Of a stretch of DNA of 64,000 bases, positions 434-27,357 are shown piece after piece. This stretch comes from the human T2T-CHM13v2.0 reference genome, Homo sapiens: assembly GCF_009914755.1 (NCBI RefSeq), contig NC_060929.1; one strand, 5' to 3'. How positions within the stretch are numbered: the first letter of the stretch is position 1; each line of letters starts with the position of its first letter. The notes beneath the pieces were generated by a model. That model ran no database searches. It had not been told where the DNA came from and was given only the letters and a program-made list of their open reading frames with translations. The translations under genes and the position numbers were made by a program.

Positions 434-3057
434 AAAGGCAAAGAGCAAAAGGAGGATGACAGCAGACCTGCCACATTTAAAAAAGCTTTCCTATGAGTCC
501 TCCCTACCCAATGCCCTCCTCTTAGGTATCATTGACTATAACTGAATCACACAGCCACCCCTAGCTACAAAGCATCCTGAAAATATACTTTATTGGGGTT
601 ATTATGAGGATGAGTGGGTTAGTTGCTAGCATTGCCTGCCATACCAACCTGTCTTTTTAATTGTTCTTGTTTCTTGGTTCATAAGGTTCATAAAAATAGG
701 CTTGGGTGCAAGCCTATTTTTCCTCTAAGTCTACATATTATTAAAATACTATTTGAAAATATTTTATAGTCAGTTTTACTGCACATTATTATATTCCCTC
801 CCAATCTTCACTTAATTTTTTGAATTCTTAATCTGTCTTAGTCTTCTGATACTTATGTTTCTATTTTTTCTTCTTGTATCTCCTGTAGTCCTTCTAATGA
901 ATGTTGATGCTGCGTTATTTAGGGTATAGAATATATAACTTAGATTTTCATTGTGGATTACACCTGTTATTATTGTAAAGTATACTTCCTGTTTAATTAT
1001 TTTTGCCCTGAATTCAATCTTATATTTAAAATCACTGTCTGGTGATTCCTTTTTGTTCACATTTATTCTGGTACGCCTTTGCCCAGCCTTGTAGTTTCAA
1101 CATTTTAGAATCACTTTGTTTAGGCCTGGCTCTCATCTGCACCATATAACTCAGTGTTGTTTCACGACCAATATGTGAGTCAAGTCACAGCCTTCTATTT
1201 TTTCTATTCCATTTCATTGTCAGTTTTTTGGAAAAAAAAAATACTCTACATTTACTGTCACCAGTTCCTGACTTTTCATTAGCTTCTCAAACCTTCCTTG
1301 ATCCTGAAGTACTCAGTAGCAGTGTGTTGAATGCAGAAAGGGGGTAGGTCAAGGAGAGTGGAAGAAGAACCTCTGCCTGTCTTCTCCACTGCTGGTTACT
1401 GATTCTGGGTCAGGAATAAGGAAAAGCTTTAAGTTGGACATGATATGATGGTTGTGATTTAGGGAACGCTGACGTTTCAATACCTGAAAATGAGTAGTAC
1501 TCAAGGTGATCAGAAAATATATGGGCTCCACCTAAGATATTATCTGAGAGAGGGAAGAGATATCTAACAGATTAAGTTTAAAAAGCAATCAGTAAGAGGA
1601 AAAAAGAGGCTATTTTCCAATTATAACCAAACAAGTTCAACCCAATTAATGAACTTGTTGCCCAGTGTTGCAACTAGTGATTTGATTTTCAAATCAAAGT
1701 GATCCTTACATAAGGATCACTATTGCAAACTGAACAGATGGTGAGACAGTTTTGATTCATTCTAAGGTCACAGAATAATTTGCTGAAAATGGGTGGAATT
1801 GTTCCAGAGAGTTACACAAAATCAAATGTCTTCATATGCCTGGGGACTGGATTTTTAAATAAGACTTAATTATAACAAAATATTTGTATTAATCTTTCAA
1901 ATACACCAACAAATGGATGATTTTACAGTGCCCTCTAGAATTCACCAGTATAAATGGACAAGGCAGGAATAAATTGTTTTTCACTGACTAGTGAAATCAC
2001 AATGCAAGCTAAGCAATATTACATATAGGGTGATAGCTCCCGCCACAATTCTCTCTCTCAGGTAAAAACAACTGAATGTCTTCTATCAACTTTTCACTAT
2101 TTCCATATAAAATATTCTATTGTTTAAACAATATTTCTGGATATGAAAAAGAGACAGTTATTTAAATAATTCCCAGTCATTTAGCTTCTATTTTACAATT
2201 CCTTGGTAATGTTAGAGTTCCCTAACCAGACACTCTCTAACAGACTATAGTTCCCCAAAGATGGGCCTTAAAAGATGGATTCTTTAACAACTGTAAAAGC
2301 TGCAGCAACAACCGTGAATCTTCAAGTGTAGCTGTTAAGATAAGATAGTTTGAGGGCAGGTATAATAAAAGGAAAAAGTTTAAATATTTATTTAAAAAAT
2401 AATAATTCCTACTTTTGATTGCCTGTTATGTGTCAAACATTCTTATTAACACTGATAATCTCCTTTTGGTGTAAATAAATTAACTATGAGAGCGTAGTTA
2501 ATACATTTTTTTAAGACAATATAGCTAAAATATAGCAGAACCAATCATCAACCATGAACCTGCCTTTATCATTAATACTTATTTTCCTAAACCACCAAAC
2601 CCTCAAAGTCTATTTTTCTTCTTTTGAAAAATAAGTATTTCTTGGAGGCCAGTAGAAAACAAAACAATCAATTGTGTTTGAATGGATGTTGATTATTCTG
2701 TTGCTGATAGTATCCGGTTTACGCCCCTCAGACCATCCTCAGAGAAATAAAAAAATCTTCAATGTGGATGACAGTTTTATGACTACACCGCTTAGTCCCA
2801 ATACAGTATTTTTCTTTGAGAATTCAAACCTATATGACTGACCACAAACCTACCATTTAAAAATTATTCCAGTTATTATATTATAGTCATTTATTTTACA
2901 GTTAGAAAATCAAATGCGTACAGTAGATCATCTTTCTACATATTTCCTTGGATTACAGGAAAATTCTCAGAAACTTCTAGCTCATAGGTACAAAATAAGT
3001 TTTAAATTATTTACCCTTGCTTGAGAATTTTAAATAAAAACCAGGTCCCTATATATA

Positions 3058-3115
3058 AATATAGAAGGTAAGAAATGTACTTCAAGAATATAGAAGATAA
3101 GAAATGTACTTCAAG
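3058..3115. repeat. 29-bp tandem duplication (1 mismatch)
   Basis: aatatagaag(g/a)taagaaatgtacttcaag x2, read directly. Confidence 0.9.
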
Positions 3116-4833
3116 AAATGATAAAACATCAGTGGATGGGTGGGACTTAGGTAATGTTGAGAATTTTTCACAATTATCATGCACTAATTTTAACAGCTTT
3201 ACTGACTACCTCTAATTGCTTTTTATGTGAGAAAAGCAATTAACTGTTTTTTCAACCACTGCTTTTGGATTTTTGTTATACGTAGTCTGAGATATAATAA
3301 TCCCAACTGATACTGTTAGTTTAACATTAACTGGGATCTATAAAATATAAGAGAAAGGAAATGTCTAGTGATGGGTGTAATCTGGAGCACAGAAACATTT
3401 TATAGCTTGTTCATGTTGGAAGGAAAATCAACTAACATTAGGCTGTTACTAGGCATTAAGACTGCAGATACCAAACCAGTTTGCCTACTACAGAGAAATA
3501 CCAGGAAGTGGATGTCCCACCCTGATTTGGGCATGGAAGCAGGCCATGTTGAGAGACTGCTTAGGGTATTACAGGTCAGTCTGAGGAAAGTGCCTGGTGG
3601 AAACCTTGGTGGAATCAGAAGAGAAAGCAAAAAAGTGCATGTAGTTGGAGAGGTTTGTTTTTGTATACATATGCAAATAAATATGCAAATGTGCATATAA
3701 ATATGCAAGCCTGTGCTTGACCTGGCTGCCAGTCAGTGTAAATGAATGAGAGGTAATAACTTCTTGATTTTTTTTTTCTCTTCCTATCAATATTTCTGCA
3801 AGGTTTGGTTGTTAATATTGGACGCAGGAGTATTCACTCCCTTGGCAGAGGTTGGAGCTATAGCTGTTAGACACCTGTCACAGAATTGCTGATCTTCTTA
3901 AAGGCTGCTGTGGGGAGACTACCTGAAGAAGGGTATAAAGAGTGGGGTTTCAATATAGAGTAGACTAAATGATATGTTTTATAAGGTAGGTCTAATTGAC
4001 ACATATTGACTCTATGCACTGAAAACAAGGATTATACCTTCTTTTCTAACAGTTTCACAAAAATTTAGGCCCCAAATCCTCAGTAAATGCCAAAAAGCAG
4101 AAATAATGTGGATATATTTCATTGATCACAAAGCAAATCAACTGAGAAGACAAAAAGACTCTATTATCTGGAATTTTAAAACTCTCTTAAAACTCGAGTC
4201 AAAGATGATATCAAAACTAAAATTGCAGCTTAATTAGAAAATATTGATAACACTACATACTAATATCCACGGAATACAATTAAAGCAACCCTCAGAAGAA
4301 ACAGTGGTTTTCAATAATTGTATTAATAACCACAAAAGAATAAGAGTAAATGAATTAACTACCCAGCTAAAAAATATAGAGAAAAAAACAGCTACCAAAA
4401 AGGAGATAAGGAAAAATGAATTATAAAAGAAAATAATAAAATCAAACTAAGAAAAATGATAATCCCAATGAATAAATTTAACAAGACAGATAAACTACTA
4501 GCTAACTTGGCCAAGAATAAAATTAAGAAAGCACAAAAATACATAATAAAAAGATACAAAGGAAAATAAAATAATCATAGGAGCCTATTTCCCTCAACTG
4601 CCTGCAAATAAATTTAGGTGAACATTTAGGTGAAATTAATCCTTTTTCTAAAAAAACACAATTTACTGAAATTGGTGAATTAAAAATATAAACATTAAAT
4701 ATTAAATGTCCAAGAAAAATAAAAAGAAAACAGTTGTCAAGGAGGTAGGCTCCCAAAGAGCATCAGGCTCAGAGGGCTTCAAAGGCTAATCTTACAAAAT
4801 CTTTATGGAAGAAATAAATAGGCTGTAATGCTA

Positions 4834-5137
4834 TTTTTTTGTTTTTCAGACAGGGTCTTGCTCTGTCACCCAGGCTAATGTGCAATGGCATGATCACAAC
4901 TCACTGCAGCCTTGAACTCCTAGGCTCAAGCCATCCTCCCGCCTCAGGTAGCTAGGATTATAGACACTGCACCACCATGTCCAGCTATCTCTTAATTTTT
5001 TTTTTTTTTTTTTTTTTTTTGTAAAGATGGGGTCTCCTTATGTTGTTCAGCTGGTCTCAAACTCCTGGCCTCAAGCAATCCACCTGCCTCAGCCTCCTAA
5101 AGTCCTGGGATTATAGGCGTGAGCCACCATGACTGGC
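4834..5137 (-). mobile_element. AluJ with expanded central A-tract
   Basis: Antisense Alu with J-type features (cagggtcttgctctgtcacccaggct, ctcaagccatcctccc); T25 linker; short TSD taatgct. Confidence 0.9.
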
Positions 5138-5389
5138 ATCTAATGCTTTTTAAATTGTTCCAGAGCAGAGGCAAAAGAGGAAAGCTTCCAAATTCTATTA
5201 ATGAAAGTAGCATACGCTTGTTACCAGAAACTGACAGCACAAAAATCACTTATGAATACTGATTTTAAAATGTTCACCAAAGTTTTAGCAAACAGAATCC
5301 AGCAGCACCTTAAAATAATTAAGGGAAAAAGAATTTTTTCCCTATGGTCTCAAGAATGATTTAACATTATTCACTATTTTAATAAGTGG

Positions 5390-5950
5390 TTGGGTATAGT
5401 AACATGGTTCATTCACTGTCTACCCCAATCTCTCTTTTGTATGACATCCTATACCATAAAGGCTGGAAAGTTCAGAATCTTCATTTCCTAGGCTCCCTTG
5501 CAGCCAGGGTCTTCAATGTGAATTACGTTTGACAATCAGACAGATGCATTTGTGTGAGACTTGTTTTCAGAATACAGTTGGTGGCACCTGAGGCAGCCAT
5601 TTTGCTGGGGTAGCTTGTAGCAGACACAGTGAGACTCTGGAGCTGGTAGTCCTTTTATCGGTTTTCTGATCCAGAGGTGAAAGATAGGAAGGTGTGTTCC
5701 TGGAGCTAAGAATTGTGGTGGCAGGCTGTCATTCCCAGATCACCTTAAGATGACATGCTCACAAACTGTGGGATGGGAGCATGACTTCCTGACTGTGACA
5801 GAGGGGGCAGATCCCTGGGTGGGCCAGTTTTGCAGTATGGTTCCGGGAGCCACTACTAGACAGCTTGCTCCTCCAGCTTTCTACTGATTTGTATGCAGCC
5901 AATTCCCTGTATAAAACCCTCTTCTGTTTTCTGCAACTGAAATTTGTCTG
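5390..5950 (+). mobile_element. ERVL LTR (LTR33-like) inserted in L1
   Basis: catttcctaggctcccttgcagccaggg and ccaattccctgtataaaaccctcttctg resemble LTR33-family sequence. Confidence 0.55.
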
Positions 5951-24299: not shown

Positions 24300-25987
24300 C
24301 TTACTGTGCTTATTCCTAGTCTCACTATGTATCATAGTTTAAAAAATATGTGTGATACCCTCAGGCTGGGAAAAGTGGACCAAGTAATAGCAAATGCCTC
24401 TCTCTGCTTTAGAAGTAAAAGGGAAGGACCATGCTTGGGAGATCTCAAGTATTGTAACATCACACTTGTAATTGCTGAAATTCAAAGATTTGGGGAAGAG
24501 AATGCAACAAGCATAATCTACAACTATCGGAAGCCCTAGTAGGGGGCTTTCAGAATCTAGCTGCTCCCATTGGTTGGAAGTCTCAATGGGAATGGCATGC
24601 TCTAAATAACCACCTTGACTGTAATGTAAAGAATAACACATGGGCCTTTCCAAACATGCCCCGTCATGGAACTCCAAACCCTTGTATGACGTTTGCTAAT
24701 AGTAGTGGCTTACAAATATGTGGGCGAACTGGAGACATCTGGACCGACAGCCCTTGCCACAAGGATCTTCTGAGATATTGGCCAGGGCATATTATGTCTC
24801 TAATTTTTTGAAACTCCATTTGTCAGGTGGACCCTCTTCATTTGGCATGTCAAATTCCAAATGGCACTGTAAGTGACTATCCTAAATATGGTTATCCTTA
24901 TCCCAGGATGTCCTTATTATATGTAAAGAGGGAAAACTTCTGAGATATGAGAAAAATCTGCCAGTGTCTCTCACAAGCCACAACTTAAAACCATCTCTTC
25001 AAGGAACAGGGCTATATTTTCTGTGTGGCTCCTGGATACACTTAATCCTCCCAAGAAAGTGGAAGGGAATTTGTACTACAGTTGCAGTAGTTCCTGACTT
25101 ATTATTTTTAAGTTCTACTGAGATGGCAGCATCATCTGGGGACATCCCTAACTTAAGCTCTTTTCTAGAAACTGCACTAACTCGAATACACCAGACAAAA
25201 AGATCTATCATTTCTATGCCTTCATATGGAGATTTAACTGAAAGCGCAGACTGGGGAGGGCATGCACATGACAATCTCTTCTTAGAAGAATCCATGGATG
25301 GGAAATTCTATAGCCAGAGGTCTATTCTGGTCTGCAGACATACCTCTCCTTGAAAGATCAATACTTAATATCTCTGTTATGATGCAACGAGGATGGAAGG
25401 AAACTGTAGGGGCCATAGAGGCACGACAGCAATCTATAGTCTCTTTAGCCTCAGTAGTAACACAAAATAGACAGGCCTTCCATGTCCTTATGGCTGGAGT
25501 AGGAGGTACCTGTGCACTTTCAAATGAAACATGTTGCTTCTAGATTAACACCTCTAGTAAAGAAGAGGAAAATCTACAGGTGCTTAAAAGATCAAATCAA
25601 AATTTTTGACAGGCTCAGAGAAAATGCCGGCTTCAGCCCCCGGTGGCTACAATCCTTATTTAATGAATTCCAGTCTTCTTCATGGAATTGGTTGACCCCT
25701 TTATTAATCCCTCTCTTGCTTGTATATCTTGTATTAATATTTGGACCCTGTATACTCAATACTGTAACTCGATTGTTTCTTCTCACCTAGAATCAGTCAA
25801 ACTCCAAATGGTGCTGCAAACTGAACCACACATGGACACGCCGTTCTGAGGACCTTTAGATCAACCCCAGGAGAAGTCTTAGATGCTGTTCCCCATTCAA
25901 TGCCCCTTTTCAGCAGGAAGTAGCCAGATAGAGTTGTCACCCAGAACCCCCTAACAGCCGTTGGGGTGATATCTCCACAGGGAGAAA
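24300..25987 (+). pseudogene. env: Disrupted endogenous retrovirus (ERV1, gamma-type) envelope gene, 5'-truncated
   Basis: Consecutive ORFs give the SU C-terminal motif GLYFLCG...P..W.G.CT, a furin-like site (HQTKR|S), a heptad/ISD-like SLASVVTQNRQAFHVL, CX6CC (CALSNETCC) and a TM anchor (WLTPLLIPLLLVYLVLIFGPCILN). Frameshifts near 25300 and 25580; stop at 25541-25543; polypurine tract 25979-25987. Confidence 0.93.
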
Positions 25988-26206
25988 TGAGGTAGGAGTT
26001 ATTAAGAAATTATTTTAGACAGGTAGAGAGGAAAAAGGGGTCCTTGGAAAATTTTTTTACAGCTCTTCTCTAGCATGAAAGCCCTGGCTCTTAGACCCAG
26101 GCCAGCAACCTTTGATATGCAAATGCAAGCCGTTAGAAACTGGGTCCACCCAGCACGGCTGGGCTGGCAACCTTAATATGCAAATGCAAGTCATTAGAAA
26201 CTGGGT

Positions 26207-26829
26207 AAACGGTCACACTCCCATTATTGTGAAGGTGCAATTCTACCCACGAGGCCTGCAGGCTCTCCTCCTGCAGCTCAGGCTTTCCTCTCTGATGTGA
26301 CACTAGAGTGCTGCTGTGGGAAATGTGGTTCACATAAACTGAGCTGTGCTCAAGGCTGTGCCTCAGTGGCAGATGATAGAGGTCAAGAGAGGACACTAGC
26401 AACAGGAAAAAGCAAGCAGGAGTGCTGTAGCCCAATGCCACGGAGCACAGAGCCACTGCTCTAAAAGGTAAATAGCCAAGAGGATAGAATGCTTTTCAAC
26501 CATTTTTGTAGCAGGTTCAAAGCCTACCTTCAGCAAGTACCTGGCTTCAAGCTGCTAAACTACCTCCTGTTATGAAGATGTGAAAAGTTTTTTTGTCATT
26601 GAATATAAACAATTAGCATACACAGATAGCCTCTTCAATCTCCATGTGAATTTAGGATTAACTATGTATGACATGGTACTGTAAATTCTTCTACTTGTGG
26701 ACTAATTTTGGTGACCATCTTTCTGTCTCTGCAGTCTCTTAAGCAGATTGACTATGATGCATGTCACATTCAAGTTTGTGTAATAAAACAGTTTTCTTTC
26801 TGTTCTAAAAAAAAAAAAAAAGAAAGAAA
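26207..26829 (+). pseudogene. L1-mediated retrocopy (5'-truncated, polyadenylated) inserted into the LTR
   Basis: TSD agaaactgggt at 26196-26206 and 26830-26840; TT/AGAAA endonuclease-type site; AATAAA 26782-26787; A-tail 26807-26829. Confidence 0.92.
26210..26380 (-). pseudogene. BNIP3P: BNIP3 pseudogene fragment (5'UTR and N-terminal codons), antisense within the retrocopy
   Basis: Minus-strand translation LQEESLQASWVELHLHNNG matches recalled human BNIP3 MQEESLQGSWVELHFSNNG, including the WVEL LIR motif (26220-26276). Upstream bases resemble a CpG-decayed BNIP3 5'UTR; start codon lost. Confidence 0.88.
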
Positions 26830-27357
26830 AGAAACTGGGTCCACTCAACATGGCGATTCCCACAGCTGTCCTCTTGCCCTTCCCCCACATGTGTCTGGCA
26901 GCATGACCACCCCCACATATCCCCACGTGTGTGGAACATCATGGTGCCCTACATTTGCATATTAAAAGGCTAGGGTAGGAGGGCCAGTTTTTTCCGCCGG
27001 TTACGTGAATGACATGCCTAGTCAAACCAATCCCCTGAGTCCTATGCAAATCAGACCCAGCCTCCTCCAGCCATTGAATATAGCTGGCTGATATTAGCTA
27101 AGTGTGGAGTTCTGTCTCTCAGCTTTGGAGCCCCGCTCCCTCTGTCTCTGTACAAGGGAGCTTCTTCTTTCTTTCTTCCCGTTTCTTTCTTGCCTATTAA
27201 ACTCTGCGCTCCTTAAAACCACACACACACGTGTGTGATAGCAGTTACTTTAAGTATCATTTAGAACACACTGGCCTAGAATTGAGGAGGTATCATTTCA
27301 GCAAGGTCACAGTAAGGTAAATAACCATATGATGAATCTCATGAACAAGAGTAAAAA

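What the first reader, a model, noticed from the sequence alone, without database searches (positions are those of the whole stretch)
26196..26840. Second-generation retrocopy: polyadenylated insert carrying an ANTISENSE BNIP3 pseudogene fragment, nested in an ERV LTR
Seen: a 623-bp insert with all L1 TPRT hallmarks (11-bp TSD agaaactgggt, TT/AGAAA site, AATAAA ~20 nt before an A-tail on +). Its 5' part encodes QEESLQASWVELHLHNNG on the MINUS strand, matching the BNIP3 N-terminus with the LIR motif, and is preceded by decayed BNIP3 5'UTR-like sequence. A direct BNIP3 retrocopy would have its poly(A) on the coding strand and keep the 3' end, not the 5' end. Inference: the source RNA was a different transcript whose last exon runs antisense through an older BNIP3 pseudogene and ends in flanking DNA. 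From recollection, many BNIP3P copies lie in the 19p12 and chr7 ZNF91-subfamily KRAB-ZNF clusters. The donor may therefore be an alternative KRAB-ZNF or lncRNA 3' end, making this a fossil record of a germline antisense transcript.
Basis: partly seen in the sequence, partly recalled or inferred. Interest (0 to 1): 0.8.

Follow-up and report, generated by a model that had tools for sequence, protein, structure and literature searches.

The report
Retrocopy of a 19p12 zinc-finger-intron RNA
This is an old LINE-1-made DNA copy of an unspliced RNA from an intron of a chromosome 19 zinc-finger gene unit, and it carries a backwards BNIP3 fragment only because that intron holds an older BNIP3 pseudogene; a tidy genomic fossil, not a working element.

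Summary
Observation confirmed and interpretation supported. Window 26207-26829 is a 623-bp insert in a gamma-type ERV LTR. It has 11-bp target-site duplications, AATAAA 19 nt before an A15-led tail, and an uninterrupted site in 9 of 9 fetched paralogous LTRs.

The first ~95 bp are antisense BNIP3 coding sequence spanning a spliced exon junction, followed by ~75 bp of weak 5'UTR likeness. The remaining ~430 bp is not BNIP3.

The whole insert is collinear with ≥34 genomic paralogs in the chr19 20-24 Mb and chr7 65.7-66.6 Mb KRAB-ZNF clusters. There the element abuts a near full-length intronless BNIP3 pseudogene on the other strand. It lies inside intron 1 of ZNF91-type gene units, sense to the ZNF gene.

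A tree places the insert, with 100/100 support, beside one paralog, T2T chr19:20,358,891-20,359,463 (−). Four siblings join that clade (chr9, chr11 ×2, chr3); chrX and chr4 copies group with it and L010 on downstream sequence. Together the seven use three poly(A) sites, and three are twin-primed.

Orphan L1 transduction, a direct BNIP3 retrocopy and DNA-level duplication were each tested and not supported.

The source RNA's promoter and annotation remain open. Ordinary mechanism, neatly documented: interest 0.3.

The parts
26196..26206 (.). 5' copy of the 11-bp target-site duplication AGAAACTGGGT (host LTR sequence)
   Evidence: It is single at this place in 9 of 9 fetched paralogous LTRs.
26207..26300 (-). 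Antisense BNIP3 coding remnant, from the mutated start codon to about codon 31. It spans the spliced exon 1/exon 2 junction.
   Evidence: 18/25 aa. (64/76 nt to the chr14 processed copy). The match to the BNIP3 gene itself stops at the exon edge.
26301..26376 (-). Decayed BNIP3 5'UTR-like stretch, weakly supported
   Evidence: The nhmmer paralog profile aligned to the chr14 processed copy reaches HMM position 299 with low posterior values.
26377..26806 (+). Non-BNIP3 sequence of the 19p12 ZNF intron 1: the DNA upstream of the old BNIP3 pseudogene, forming the 3' part of the source RNA
   Evidence: Collinear with ≥34 chr19/chr7 paralogs. No significant BNIP3 match.
26782..26787 (+). AATAAA poly(A) signal (site pA1), 19 nt before the tail
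   Evidence: Kept in 20 of 25 aligned genomic paralogs.
26807..26829 (+). Poly(A) tail: A15 followed by GAAAGAAA
   Evidence: Homology to the genomic paralogs ends at 26807.
26830..26840 (.). 3' copy of the target-site duplication
26030..27240 (+). Host: 3' LTR of a gamma-type ERV, interrupted by the insert. Both boundaries are approximate.
   Evidence: The right part has 618 candidate copies genome-wide, of which 40 were scored at 81-89% identity. Env TM (TLV_coat) hits lie just upstream at 25286-25790.

Best explanation
Window 26207-26829 is a 5'-truncated, LINE-1-mediated retrocopy of a polyadenylated, unspliced RNA.

The RNA was transcribed from the minus strand of one ZNF91-type gene unit in 19p12. 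The only surviving genomic member of that lineage is T2T chr19:20,358,891-20,359,463.

In that unit, as in its paralogs, intron 1 contains an old intronless BNIP3 processed pseudogene on the opposite strand. The RNA ran antisense through this pseudogene, continued about 430 nt into the DNA upstream of it, and was cleaved about 20 nt after an AATAAA (site pA1).

L1 endonuclease nicked a TTTCT/AATG site in an ERV LTR on chr5. Reverse transcription started on the A-tail and stopped inside the antisense BNIP3 coding part. The 5' end was probably joined by microhomology.

Shown: retrocopy hallmarks, source lineage, intronic position, orientation, and the shared poly(A) site.

Inferred: that the RNA started at the unit's exon-1 promoter 16.8 kb upstream (an intronic-polyadenylation or alternative-terminal-exon isoform) rather than at an internal start, and that the chr5 copy has no function.
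For: TPRT hallmarks and the empty site.

Collinearity with chr19/chr7 paralogs, ending exactly at the tail.

The paralogs abut near full-length intronless BNIP3 copies on the other strand. For example, C19:20489040-20489582(+) covers profile positions 1-182 next to the element at 20488504-20489100(−).

The insert crosses the spliced BNIP3 exon 1/2 junction.

Tree: the window copy, chr9, chr11a, chr11b, chr3 and chr19:20358891 form a 100/100 clade on a 0.039 stem among 32 rows. K2P to that paralog is 0.0415 (23 differences in 570 sites), against 0.105-0.109 to three other paralogs.

ZNF context:
- In one intact unit, exon 1 lies at about 22149184, the KRAB-A exon at 22127218-343 and the zinc-finger array at ≤22112772. 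The element at 22135545-22136149 lies between them on the same strand.
- The source unit is collinear with that intron. It keeps an exon-1 homolog (84%, ATGG|GTGAG retained) and a KRAB-A homolog (88%).
- 20 of 34 element copies have an exon-1-like sequence 4.8-16.8 kb upstream on the same strand.

The chr3 sibling shows the RNA was unspliced over ≥2.7 kb (20360810→20358104).
Against: No transcript, CAGE or 3'-end data could be consulted, so the RNA's start, and whether it is annotated, are unknown.

No dispersed copy joins exon 1 to the element. All 40 scored exon-1 matches, of 106 candidates, are on chr19 or chr7.

Only one of ≥34 paralogous units left retrocopies. A shared ZNF promoter does not explain this by itself.

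The present-day source paralog lacks the pA1 AATAAA because of a 19-bp deletion. The deletion must therefore post-date the pA1-type copies, or the true donor is a lost sister.

14 of 34 element copies had no same-strand exon-1-like match within 25 kb. The exon-1 list was, however, incomplete.
Confidence: 0.88

Rival explanations
1. Orphan L1 3' transduction. A LINE-1 lying upstream in the source unit read through its own poly(A) signal into the flank. Heavily 5'-truncated offspring kept only the transduced flank.
For: A single source locus with seven offspring, three alternative downstream poly(A) sites and frequent 5' truncation or inversion is the pattern such a source gives. L1 material does lie 2.6-7.5 kb upstream of the RNA's known extent.
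Against: That L1 is itself a 5'-inverted insertion. Its sense 3' end and A-rich tail are on the + strand at 20368485 and point away from the element. Its minus-strand part starts inside ORF1, so it has no 5'UTR. No minus-strand L1 3'-end motif with a tail was found in C19:20353000-20382999; there was one 3-mismatch hit without a tail. None of the seven copies carries L1 sequence at its 5' end.
Confidence: 0.05
2. A direct BNIP3 mRNA retrocopy rearranged by twin priming: 5' part inverted, 3' part from the BNIP3 3'UTR.
For: Twin priming is common in this small family, at 3 of 7 copies.
Against: Window 26377-26806 has no significant match to the processed BNIP3 copy including its 3'UTR. The only hit is a 22-nt antisense stretch (E=6e-4 by blastn, E=1.1 by nhmmer). 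The whole insert is collinear with one genomic stretch on chr19.
Confidence: 0.01
3. DNA-level duplication (segmental duplication or gene conversion) from 19p12, not an RNA copy.
For: The same unit has spread as DNA to pericentromeric sites. The 72-75% copies on C13, C18, C16 and C10 keep the adjoining BNIP3 pseudogene, as shown for C13 and C18.
Against: The window copy ends in an A-tail exactly ~20 nt after AATAAA and has TSDs and a clean empty site. The genomic paralogs continue past that point.
Confidence: 0.01
4. The donor RNA started at an internal promoter inside intron 1 (for example a repeat-borne start near the 3' end of the BNIP3 pseudogene) and is an independent lncRNA, not a ZNF-promoter isoform.
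For: The farthest upstream point recorded by any copy is chr19:20360810, still inside the BNIP3 pseudogene 3'UTR. No copy shows splicing to exon 1. Only one unit was productive.
Against: The element and the pseudogene are CpG-depleted (o/e 0.0 and 0.1). The exon-1 region keeps 32 CpGs in about 900 bp (o/e 0.47). No promoter evidence of any kind could be obtained.
Confidence: 0.35

Closest known systems
L1-mediated processed pseudogenes (retrocopies) made by target-primed reverse transcription
   Same: TSDs, a near-consensus endonuclease site, an A-tail after a poly(A) signal, 5' truncation, and twin-primed siblings.
   Different: The template was not a spliced mRNA. It was an unspliced, non-coding intronic RNA, so intron loss cannot be used as a criterion. 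The only gene-like content is an older retrocopy read backwards.
BNIP3 processed pseudogenes (BNIP3P series)
   Same: Carries about 95 bp of BNIP3 coding sequence with the exon 1/2 junction spliced out.
   Different: The fragment is the 5' end, antisense to the A-tail, and is followed by non-BNIP3 DNA. It is inherited second-hand from a chr19 BNIP3 pseudogene, not made from BNIP3 mRNA.
Orphan L1 3' transductions
   Same: One source locus, several offspring, alternative downstream poly(A) sites.
   Different: No same-strand L1 lies upstream of the source sequence today.
Intronic-polyadenylation / alternative terminal exon isoforms of KRAB-ZNF genes
   Same: The element lies in intron 1, sense to the ZNF unit. 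AATAAA is retained in 20 of 25 aligned paralogs.
   Different: Use of the ZNF promoter is inferred. I found no paper linking ZNF91 with intronic polyadenylation (0 papers).

Membership tests
L1-mediated retrocopy (TPRT product) | Target-site duplication flanking the insert, with an uninterrupted site in related copies | tested here: met
   11-bp TSD at 26196-206 and 26830-840. 9 of 9 fetched paralogous LTRs are uninterrupted. Orthologous primate sites could not be checked.
L1-mediated retrocopy (TPRT product) | 3' poly(A) tail beginning at the source RNA's cleavage site, 10-30 nt after a poly(A) signal | tested here: met
   AATAAA at 26782-87 and tail from 26807. Genomic paralogs continue past this base, while three further copies (chr9, chr11 ×2) end in A-runs at the same site.
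L1-mediated retrocopy (TPRT product) | Endonuclease nick site resembling TTTT/AA (consensus recalled, not from a call) | tested here: met
   The bottom strand reads TTTCT/AATG, one mismatch.
L1-mediated retrocopy (TPRT product) | Loss of introns relative to the source gene | tested here: inconclusive
   The insert is collinear with genomic DNA, so the template was unspliced here. The criterion does not apply.
Direct BNIP3 processed pseudogene | Collinear with BNIP3 mRNA, with the A-tail on the coding strand at the mRNA 3' end | tested here: not met
   Only 26207-~26376 is BNIP3-like, and it is antisense to the tail.
Orphan L1 3' transduction | Progenitor L1 immediately upstream of the transduced sequence, on the same strand | tested here: not met
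   The only L1 3' end in C19:20353000-20382999 is on the opposite strand at 20368485.
Segmental duplication | Homology continues into both flanks, with no tail and no TSD | tested here: not met
   Homology to the chr19 copies stops at 26807 and at about 26195-26223. The flanks are ERV LTR.
KRAB-ZNF mRNA retrocopy | KRAB or C2H2 zinc-finger coding sequence | tested here: not met
   None of the 30 frames ≥20 aa over 26100-26900 shows such content by eye. Only one of them was put to Pfam. The source element lies between exon 1 and the KRAB-A exon.
Curated RNA family (Rfam) | Match at gathering score | tested here: not met
   0 matches over 25900-27300.

The most novel reading that the evidence does not exclude
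One 19p12 unit among ≥34 paralogs produced an RNA that L1 copied unusually often. There are at least seven surviving copies, using three poly(A) sites, made over a period long enough for the first site to be lost. If so, this RNA was either exceptionally abundant in the ape germline or carried a feature that favoured capture by the L1 machinery. It would then be a nascent non-autonomous retroelement rather than a one-off processed pseudogene.
Probability: 0.1. Interest if true: 0.5.

Novelty: new member of a known kind. Interest (0 to 1): 0.3.

Why it matters
- Annotation. It explains a stray BNIP3-like fragment on chr5 that could be mis-filed as a direct BNIP3 pseudogene.
- A concrete source. 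It names one chr19 source locus with three poly(A) sites. These can be checked against long-read, CAGE and 3'-end data for an unannotated or little-noticed intronic RNA of a ZNF91-type unit.
- A record of past expression. The seven copies show that this RNA was present where L1 was active in the germline. A loss of the first poly(A) signal is mirrored in the later copies.
- Limits. It does not change how retrotransposition is understood.

Tried and rejected
- The Pfam hit of the peptide alone was below cut-off. I relied on DNA and profile alignments instead.
- The apparent splice donor AAAAG|GTAAAT at 26463-26472 is private to the window copy. Most other aligned rows read AAAATGTAAAT or a close variant at that spot, and none has the window's G, so it is not a conserved exon edge.
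- A Pfam KRAB scan of the whole genome scored only 150 of 693 candidates and gave few 19p12 hits. I used one hit plus exon-1 homology instead.
- A search for dispersed copies joining exon 1 to the element found none among 40 scored of 106 candidates.
- The L1 3'-transduction test was negative.
- No 5' LTR of the host provirus lies in the window, so no LTR-LTR dating was possible.
- Two pattern hits (C15:45303228, C4:183633099) matched only 30-32 bp and are chance.
- Literature searches:
  - 'BNIP3P' found 36 papers; the 20 listed appeared unrelated to cluster structure by title and abstract start.
  - One passage was read in PMC10216271, which names adjacent BNIP3P19, BNIP3P20 and BNIP3P21.
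  - 'BNIP3' + '19p12' + 'pseudogene' found 0 papers.
  - 'ZNF91' + 'intronic polyadenylation' found 0 papers.
  - A general retrocopy search gave reviews only, seen as a listing.

Full report
**1. The observation**

The window sequence shows AGAAACTGGGT at 26196-26206 and again at 26830-26840, enclosing 623 bp at 26207-26829.
- AATAAA lies at 26782-26787. The tail starts at 26807 as A15 followed by GAAAGAAA.
- Read, the bottom-strand nick site is TTTCT/AATG. That is one base off the L1 endonuclease preference TTTT/AA, which I recall and did not test.

The flanks are an ERV LTR.
- The right flank, 26841-27235, has 618 candidate copies in the genome. Forty were scored, at 81-89% identity.
- Frames at 25286-25543 and 25503-25790, just upstream, hit the retroviral envelope family TLV_coat at E=9.7e-10 and 3.1e-6.
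- In 9 of 9 fetched paralogous LTRs the sequence runs ...GTTAGAAACTGGGT|CCACCCAACATGG... without interruption. This serves as a paralogous empty site. Orthologous sites in other primates could not be examined.

**2. The BNIP3 fragment**

The minus-strand frame 26133-26495 contains QEESLQASWVELHLHNNG.
- Against Pfam this is below threshold: PF06553, E=0.09, 12.9 bits against a cut-off of 26.
- I therefore used sequences fetched from the same genome. The translated start of the chr14 intronless BNIP3 copy matches the window peptide at 18 of 25 residues, E=4e-13 for that single comparison.
- At DNA level, window 26219-26294 matches the chr14 copy at 64/76, E=1e-19, in antisense.

The fragment comes from a spliced BNIP3 mRNA, not from the BNIP3 gene.
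- The match to the BNIP3 gene itself is only 36/41 and stops where the gene's exon ends.
- Upstream of GSWVELHF the gene reads non-coding sequence, whereas the processed copy reads MSQNGAPGMQEESLQ.
- The window fragment therefore crosses a spliced exon junction. It descends from a processed BNIP3 copy, not from an antisense transcript of the BNIP3 gene.

A profile of 25 genomic paralogs aligns to the chr14 copy at E=2e-52. It runs about 70 nt past the start codon into the 5'UTR, with low posterior values there. The '5'UTR-like' claim is thus only partly supported, to about window 26376.

The rest of the insert, about 26377-26806, has no significant BNIP3 match.

**3. Where the insert came from**

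The genome search returned 44 matches from 40 scored of 142 candidates.
- 33 lie on C19:19.99-24.25 Mb and 4 on C7:65.76-66.59 Mb.
- Most cover query positions about 4-600 of 619, at 77-92% identity.

The genomic copies are duplications, and the window copy is not.
- Aligning the 3' ends shows that the chr19 and chr7 copies remain homologous to one another beyond the base corresponding to window 26807.
- The window copy and a chr11 copy switch to poly(A) exactly there.
- At the 5' side, homology to the window stops at 26195-26223. The genomic copies continue into more BNIP3 antisense sequence.

The BNIP3 pseudogenes sit next to the element.
- The Pfam BNIP3 scan of the genome gave 94 matches: 48 on C19:19.95-24.25 Mb and 6 on C7.
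- Several are near full-length and uninterrupted. For example, C19:20489040-20489582(+) covers profile positions 1-182.
- They lie directly next to the element on the other strand; in that example the element is at 20488504-20489100(−).
- The unit is therefore an old intronless BNIP3 pseudogene plus its upstream flank, multiplied by segmental duplication.

**4. Position within ZNF genes**

Around the copy at C19:22135545-22136149(−) there is a minus-strand gene:
- a zinc-finger array at ≤22112772, with 31 finger matches in the stretch scanned;
- a KRAB-A exon at 22127218-22127343;
- 21.8 kb upstream of that exon, a CpG-rich stretch containing ...GAAATGG|GTGAGT at about 22149184, which I take to be exon 1.

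The element and its BNIP3 pseudogene lie between exon 1 and the KRAB-A exon. They are therefore in intron 1, with the element sense to the ZNF gene.

The unit around chr19:20358891 is collinear with this intron.
- It keeps an exon-1 homolog: 226/270 identical, with ATGG|GTGAG retained.
- It keeps a KRAB-A homolog: 119/135 identical.
- It has no minus-strand finger array in the 11 kb below the KRAB exon. It may be a truncated gene or a pseudogene.

Across the family, 20 of 34 element copies have an exon-1-like sequence 4.8-16.8 kb upstream on the same strand. The exon-1 list came from 40 scored of 106 candidates, so the other 14 are undecided rather than negative.

**5. Siblings and the source lineage**

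| Copy | Poly(A) site | Features |
|---|---|---|
| C5, the window copy | pA1 | 623 bp, 11-bp TSD, A15-led tail |
| C11:24213218-602 | pA1 | query 237-617, A18 tail |
| C9:110625243-649 | pA1 | sense part plus inverted 111-bp part with an 11-bp overlap, the twin-priming pattern |
| C11:~73996000 | pA1 | 157 bp at 95.5%, A-run at pA1 |
| C3:26515859-26517979 | pA2, 795 bp further on | 1385 bp at 94.9% to C19:20358104-20359478, plus an inverted 737 bp at 96.5% to 20360073-20360810; A10 tail after AAATAAA |
| C4:61599253-518 | pA2 | 5'-truncated, A12 tail |
| C23 (chrX):~15139925-15140700 | pA3, after another AATAAA | inverted 5' piece, A10 tail, 12-bp TSD AAGATGATTAGA |

The trees point to one source.
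- In a maximum-likelihood tree of 32 rows, the window copy, both chr11 copies, the chr9 copy, the chr3 copy and chr19:20358891 form a clade. It has 100/100 support on a stem of 0.039.
- chr3 is sister to the chr19 paralog at 99/94.
- On the downstream segment, chrX, chr4 and chr3 group with that paralog and with L010 at 100/99.
- K2P between the window copy and the paralog is 0.0415 (23 differences in 570 sites), against 0.105-0.109 to three other paralogs.
- With recalled neutral rates of 1.1-2.2e-9 per site per year, this suggests roughly 9-19 Myr. That figure is untested.

The poly(A) sites shifted over time.
- The chr19 paralog and the chr3 copy share a 19-bp deletion that removes the pA1 AATAAA.
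- This fits an order of events in which pA1 copies were made first, the signal was then lost, and later RNAs read through to pA2 or pA3. The order is an inference.

**6. The 5' junction**

Just upstream of the truncation point the paralogs read TAGAAACTG(A/G)GGCTGAAAC. That resembles the TSD: 10 of 11 bases in L004 and 9 of 11 in L007. The present source paralog is more diverged at this spot.

This suggests that the 5' end was attached by microhomology. It also makes the exact 5' boundary uncertain by up to about 15 nt.

**7. Rivals tested**

*Orphan L1 3' transduction.* This would explain a single prolific source.
- The L1 upstream of the source sequence is itself a 5'-inverted insertion. Its sense 3' end lies on the + strand at 20368485 and points away from the element.
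- Its minus-strand part begins inside ORF1, so it lacks a 5'UTR.
- No minus-strand L1 3' end with a tail was found in 30 kb.

*Direct twin-primed BNIP3 retrocopy.* This is excluded by the lack of any 3'UTR match and by collinearity with chr19.

*DNA-level duplication.* This is excluded by the tail, the TSDs and the empty site.

*Curated RNA family.* No Rfam family matches.

**8. What remains open**

The start of the RNA is unknown.
- The exon-1 region of the source unit keeps 32 CpGs in about 900 bp (o/e 0.47). The element and the pseudogene have o/e 0.0 and 0.1.
- For this reason I favour the ZNF-type promoter, but it is inference only.
- An internal start is a live alternative, at about one chance in three.

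Why only one of ≥34 units left copies is unexplained.

I could not consult repeat libraries, primate genomes or chr19 annotation. The four literature searches found nothing describing this element. From the papers I saw listings only, plus one passage in PMC10216271.

**9. Verdict**

The mechanism is standard L1 trans-mobilisation of a non-coding RNA. This is a new member of a known kind, of modest interest.

Noticed in passing
L002/L049-L050: C3:26515859-26517979; L033: C9:110625243-649; L019: C11:24213218-602; L040: C11:~73996000; L062: C4:61599253-518; L061: C23:~15139925-15140700: Six sibling retrocopies of the same chr19 RNA, using three poly(A) sites (pA1, pA2, pA3). Three of the seven copies, counting the window copy in the total, are twin-primed or 5'-inverted: chr9, chr3 and chrX.
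   Followed up: yes
L003/L034: C19:20358891-20359463 and L002: The source paralog and the chr3 retrocopy share a 19-bp deletion that removes the AATAAA of the first poly(A) site. The chr3, chr4 and chrX copies end at sites 795 bp and about 930 bp further downstream, as if read-through followed loss of the signal.
   Followed up: partly
window 26105-26145 vs 26167-26206: The host LTR carries an internal tandem duplication of about 61 bp (a 41-bp match at 90%), so the TSD 11-mer also occurs a third time at 26135-26145. Some paralogous LTRs (L059) show the same duplication.
   Followed up: partly
window 25286-25991: The predicted lncRNA exon 25791-25991 (LOC105379129) starts directly after the last envelope (TLV_coat) frame of the ERV. 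The exon is therefore ERV-derived. The retrocopy, with its AATAAA, lies in the following intron in the sense orientation.
   Followed up: no
L031: C10:132915088-132915183: About 1 kb upstream of the BNIP3 exon that encodes GSWVELHF... lies a second, slightly decayed copy of part of that exon (nhmmer E=4.6e-20). It appears to be an intronic duplicate.
   Followed up: no
L035 (C19:20363000-20372999) 690-5700: A 5'-inverted L1 sits in the source unit. ORF1 and the endonuclease part are on the minus strand, and the reverse-transcriptase part to the 3' end is on the plus strand. A 364-aa stop-free frame covers the three ORF1 domains. Whether it is private to this unit was not checked.
   Followed up: partly
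window 26599-26620: A 20/22 match to the antisense 3'UTR of the chr14 BNIP3 copy (blastn E=6e-4, nhmmer E=1.1). Probably chance.
   Followed up: partly
L050: C3:26517980-26518130: Between the possible 5' TSD (AAAAAGCTTC) of the chr3 retrocopy and its inverted segment lie an Alu-tail-like piece and a (GAGAGG)n run. The 5' junction of that copy is therefore complex.
   Followed up: no
C13:17707976-17709042, C18:15408676-15409767, C16:38545460, C10:43238131; C4/C15/C21/C22 at 45-59 kb: The element, the BNIP3 pseudogene or both also occur at other sites. There are 72-75% copies at positions I take to be pericentromeric on C13, C18, C16 and C10. Four identical BNIP3 pseudogene copies lie 45-49 kb from the starts of C4, C15, C21 and C22, each with a KRAB exon about 10 kb away. 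These look like DNA-level spread of the unit.
   Followed up: no
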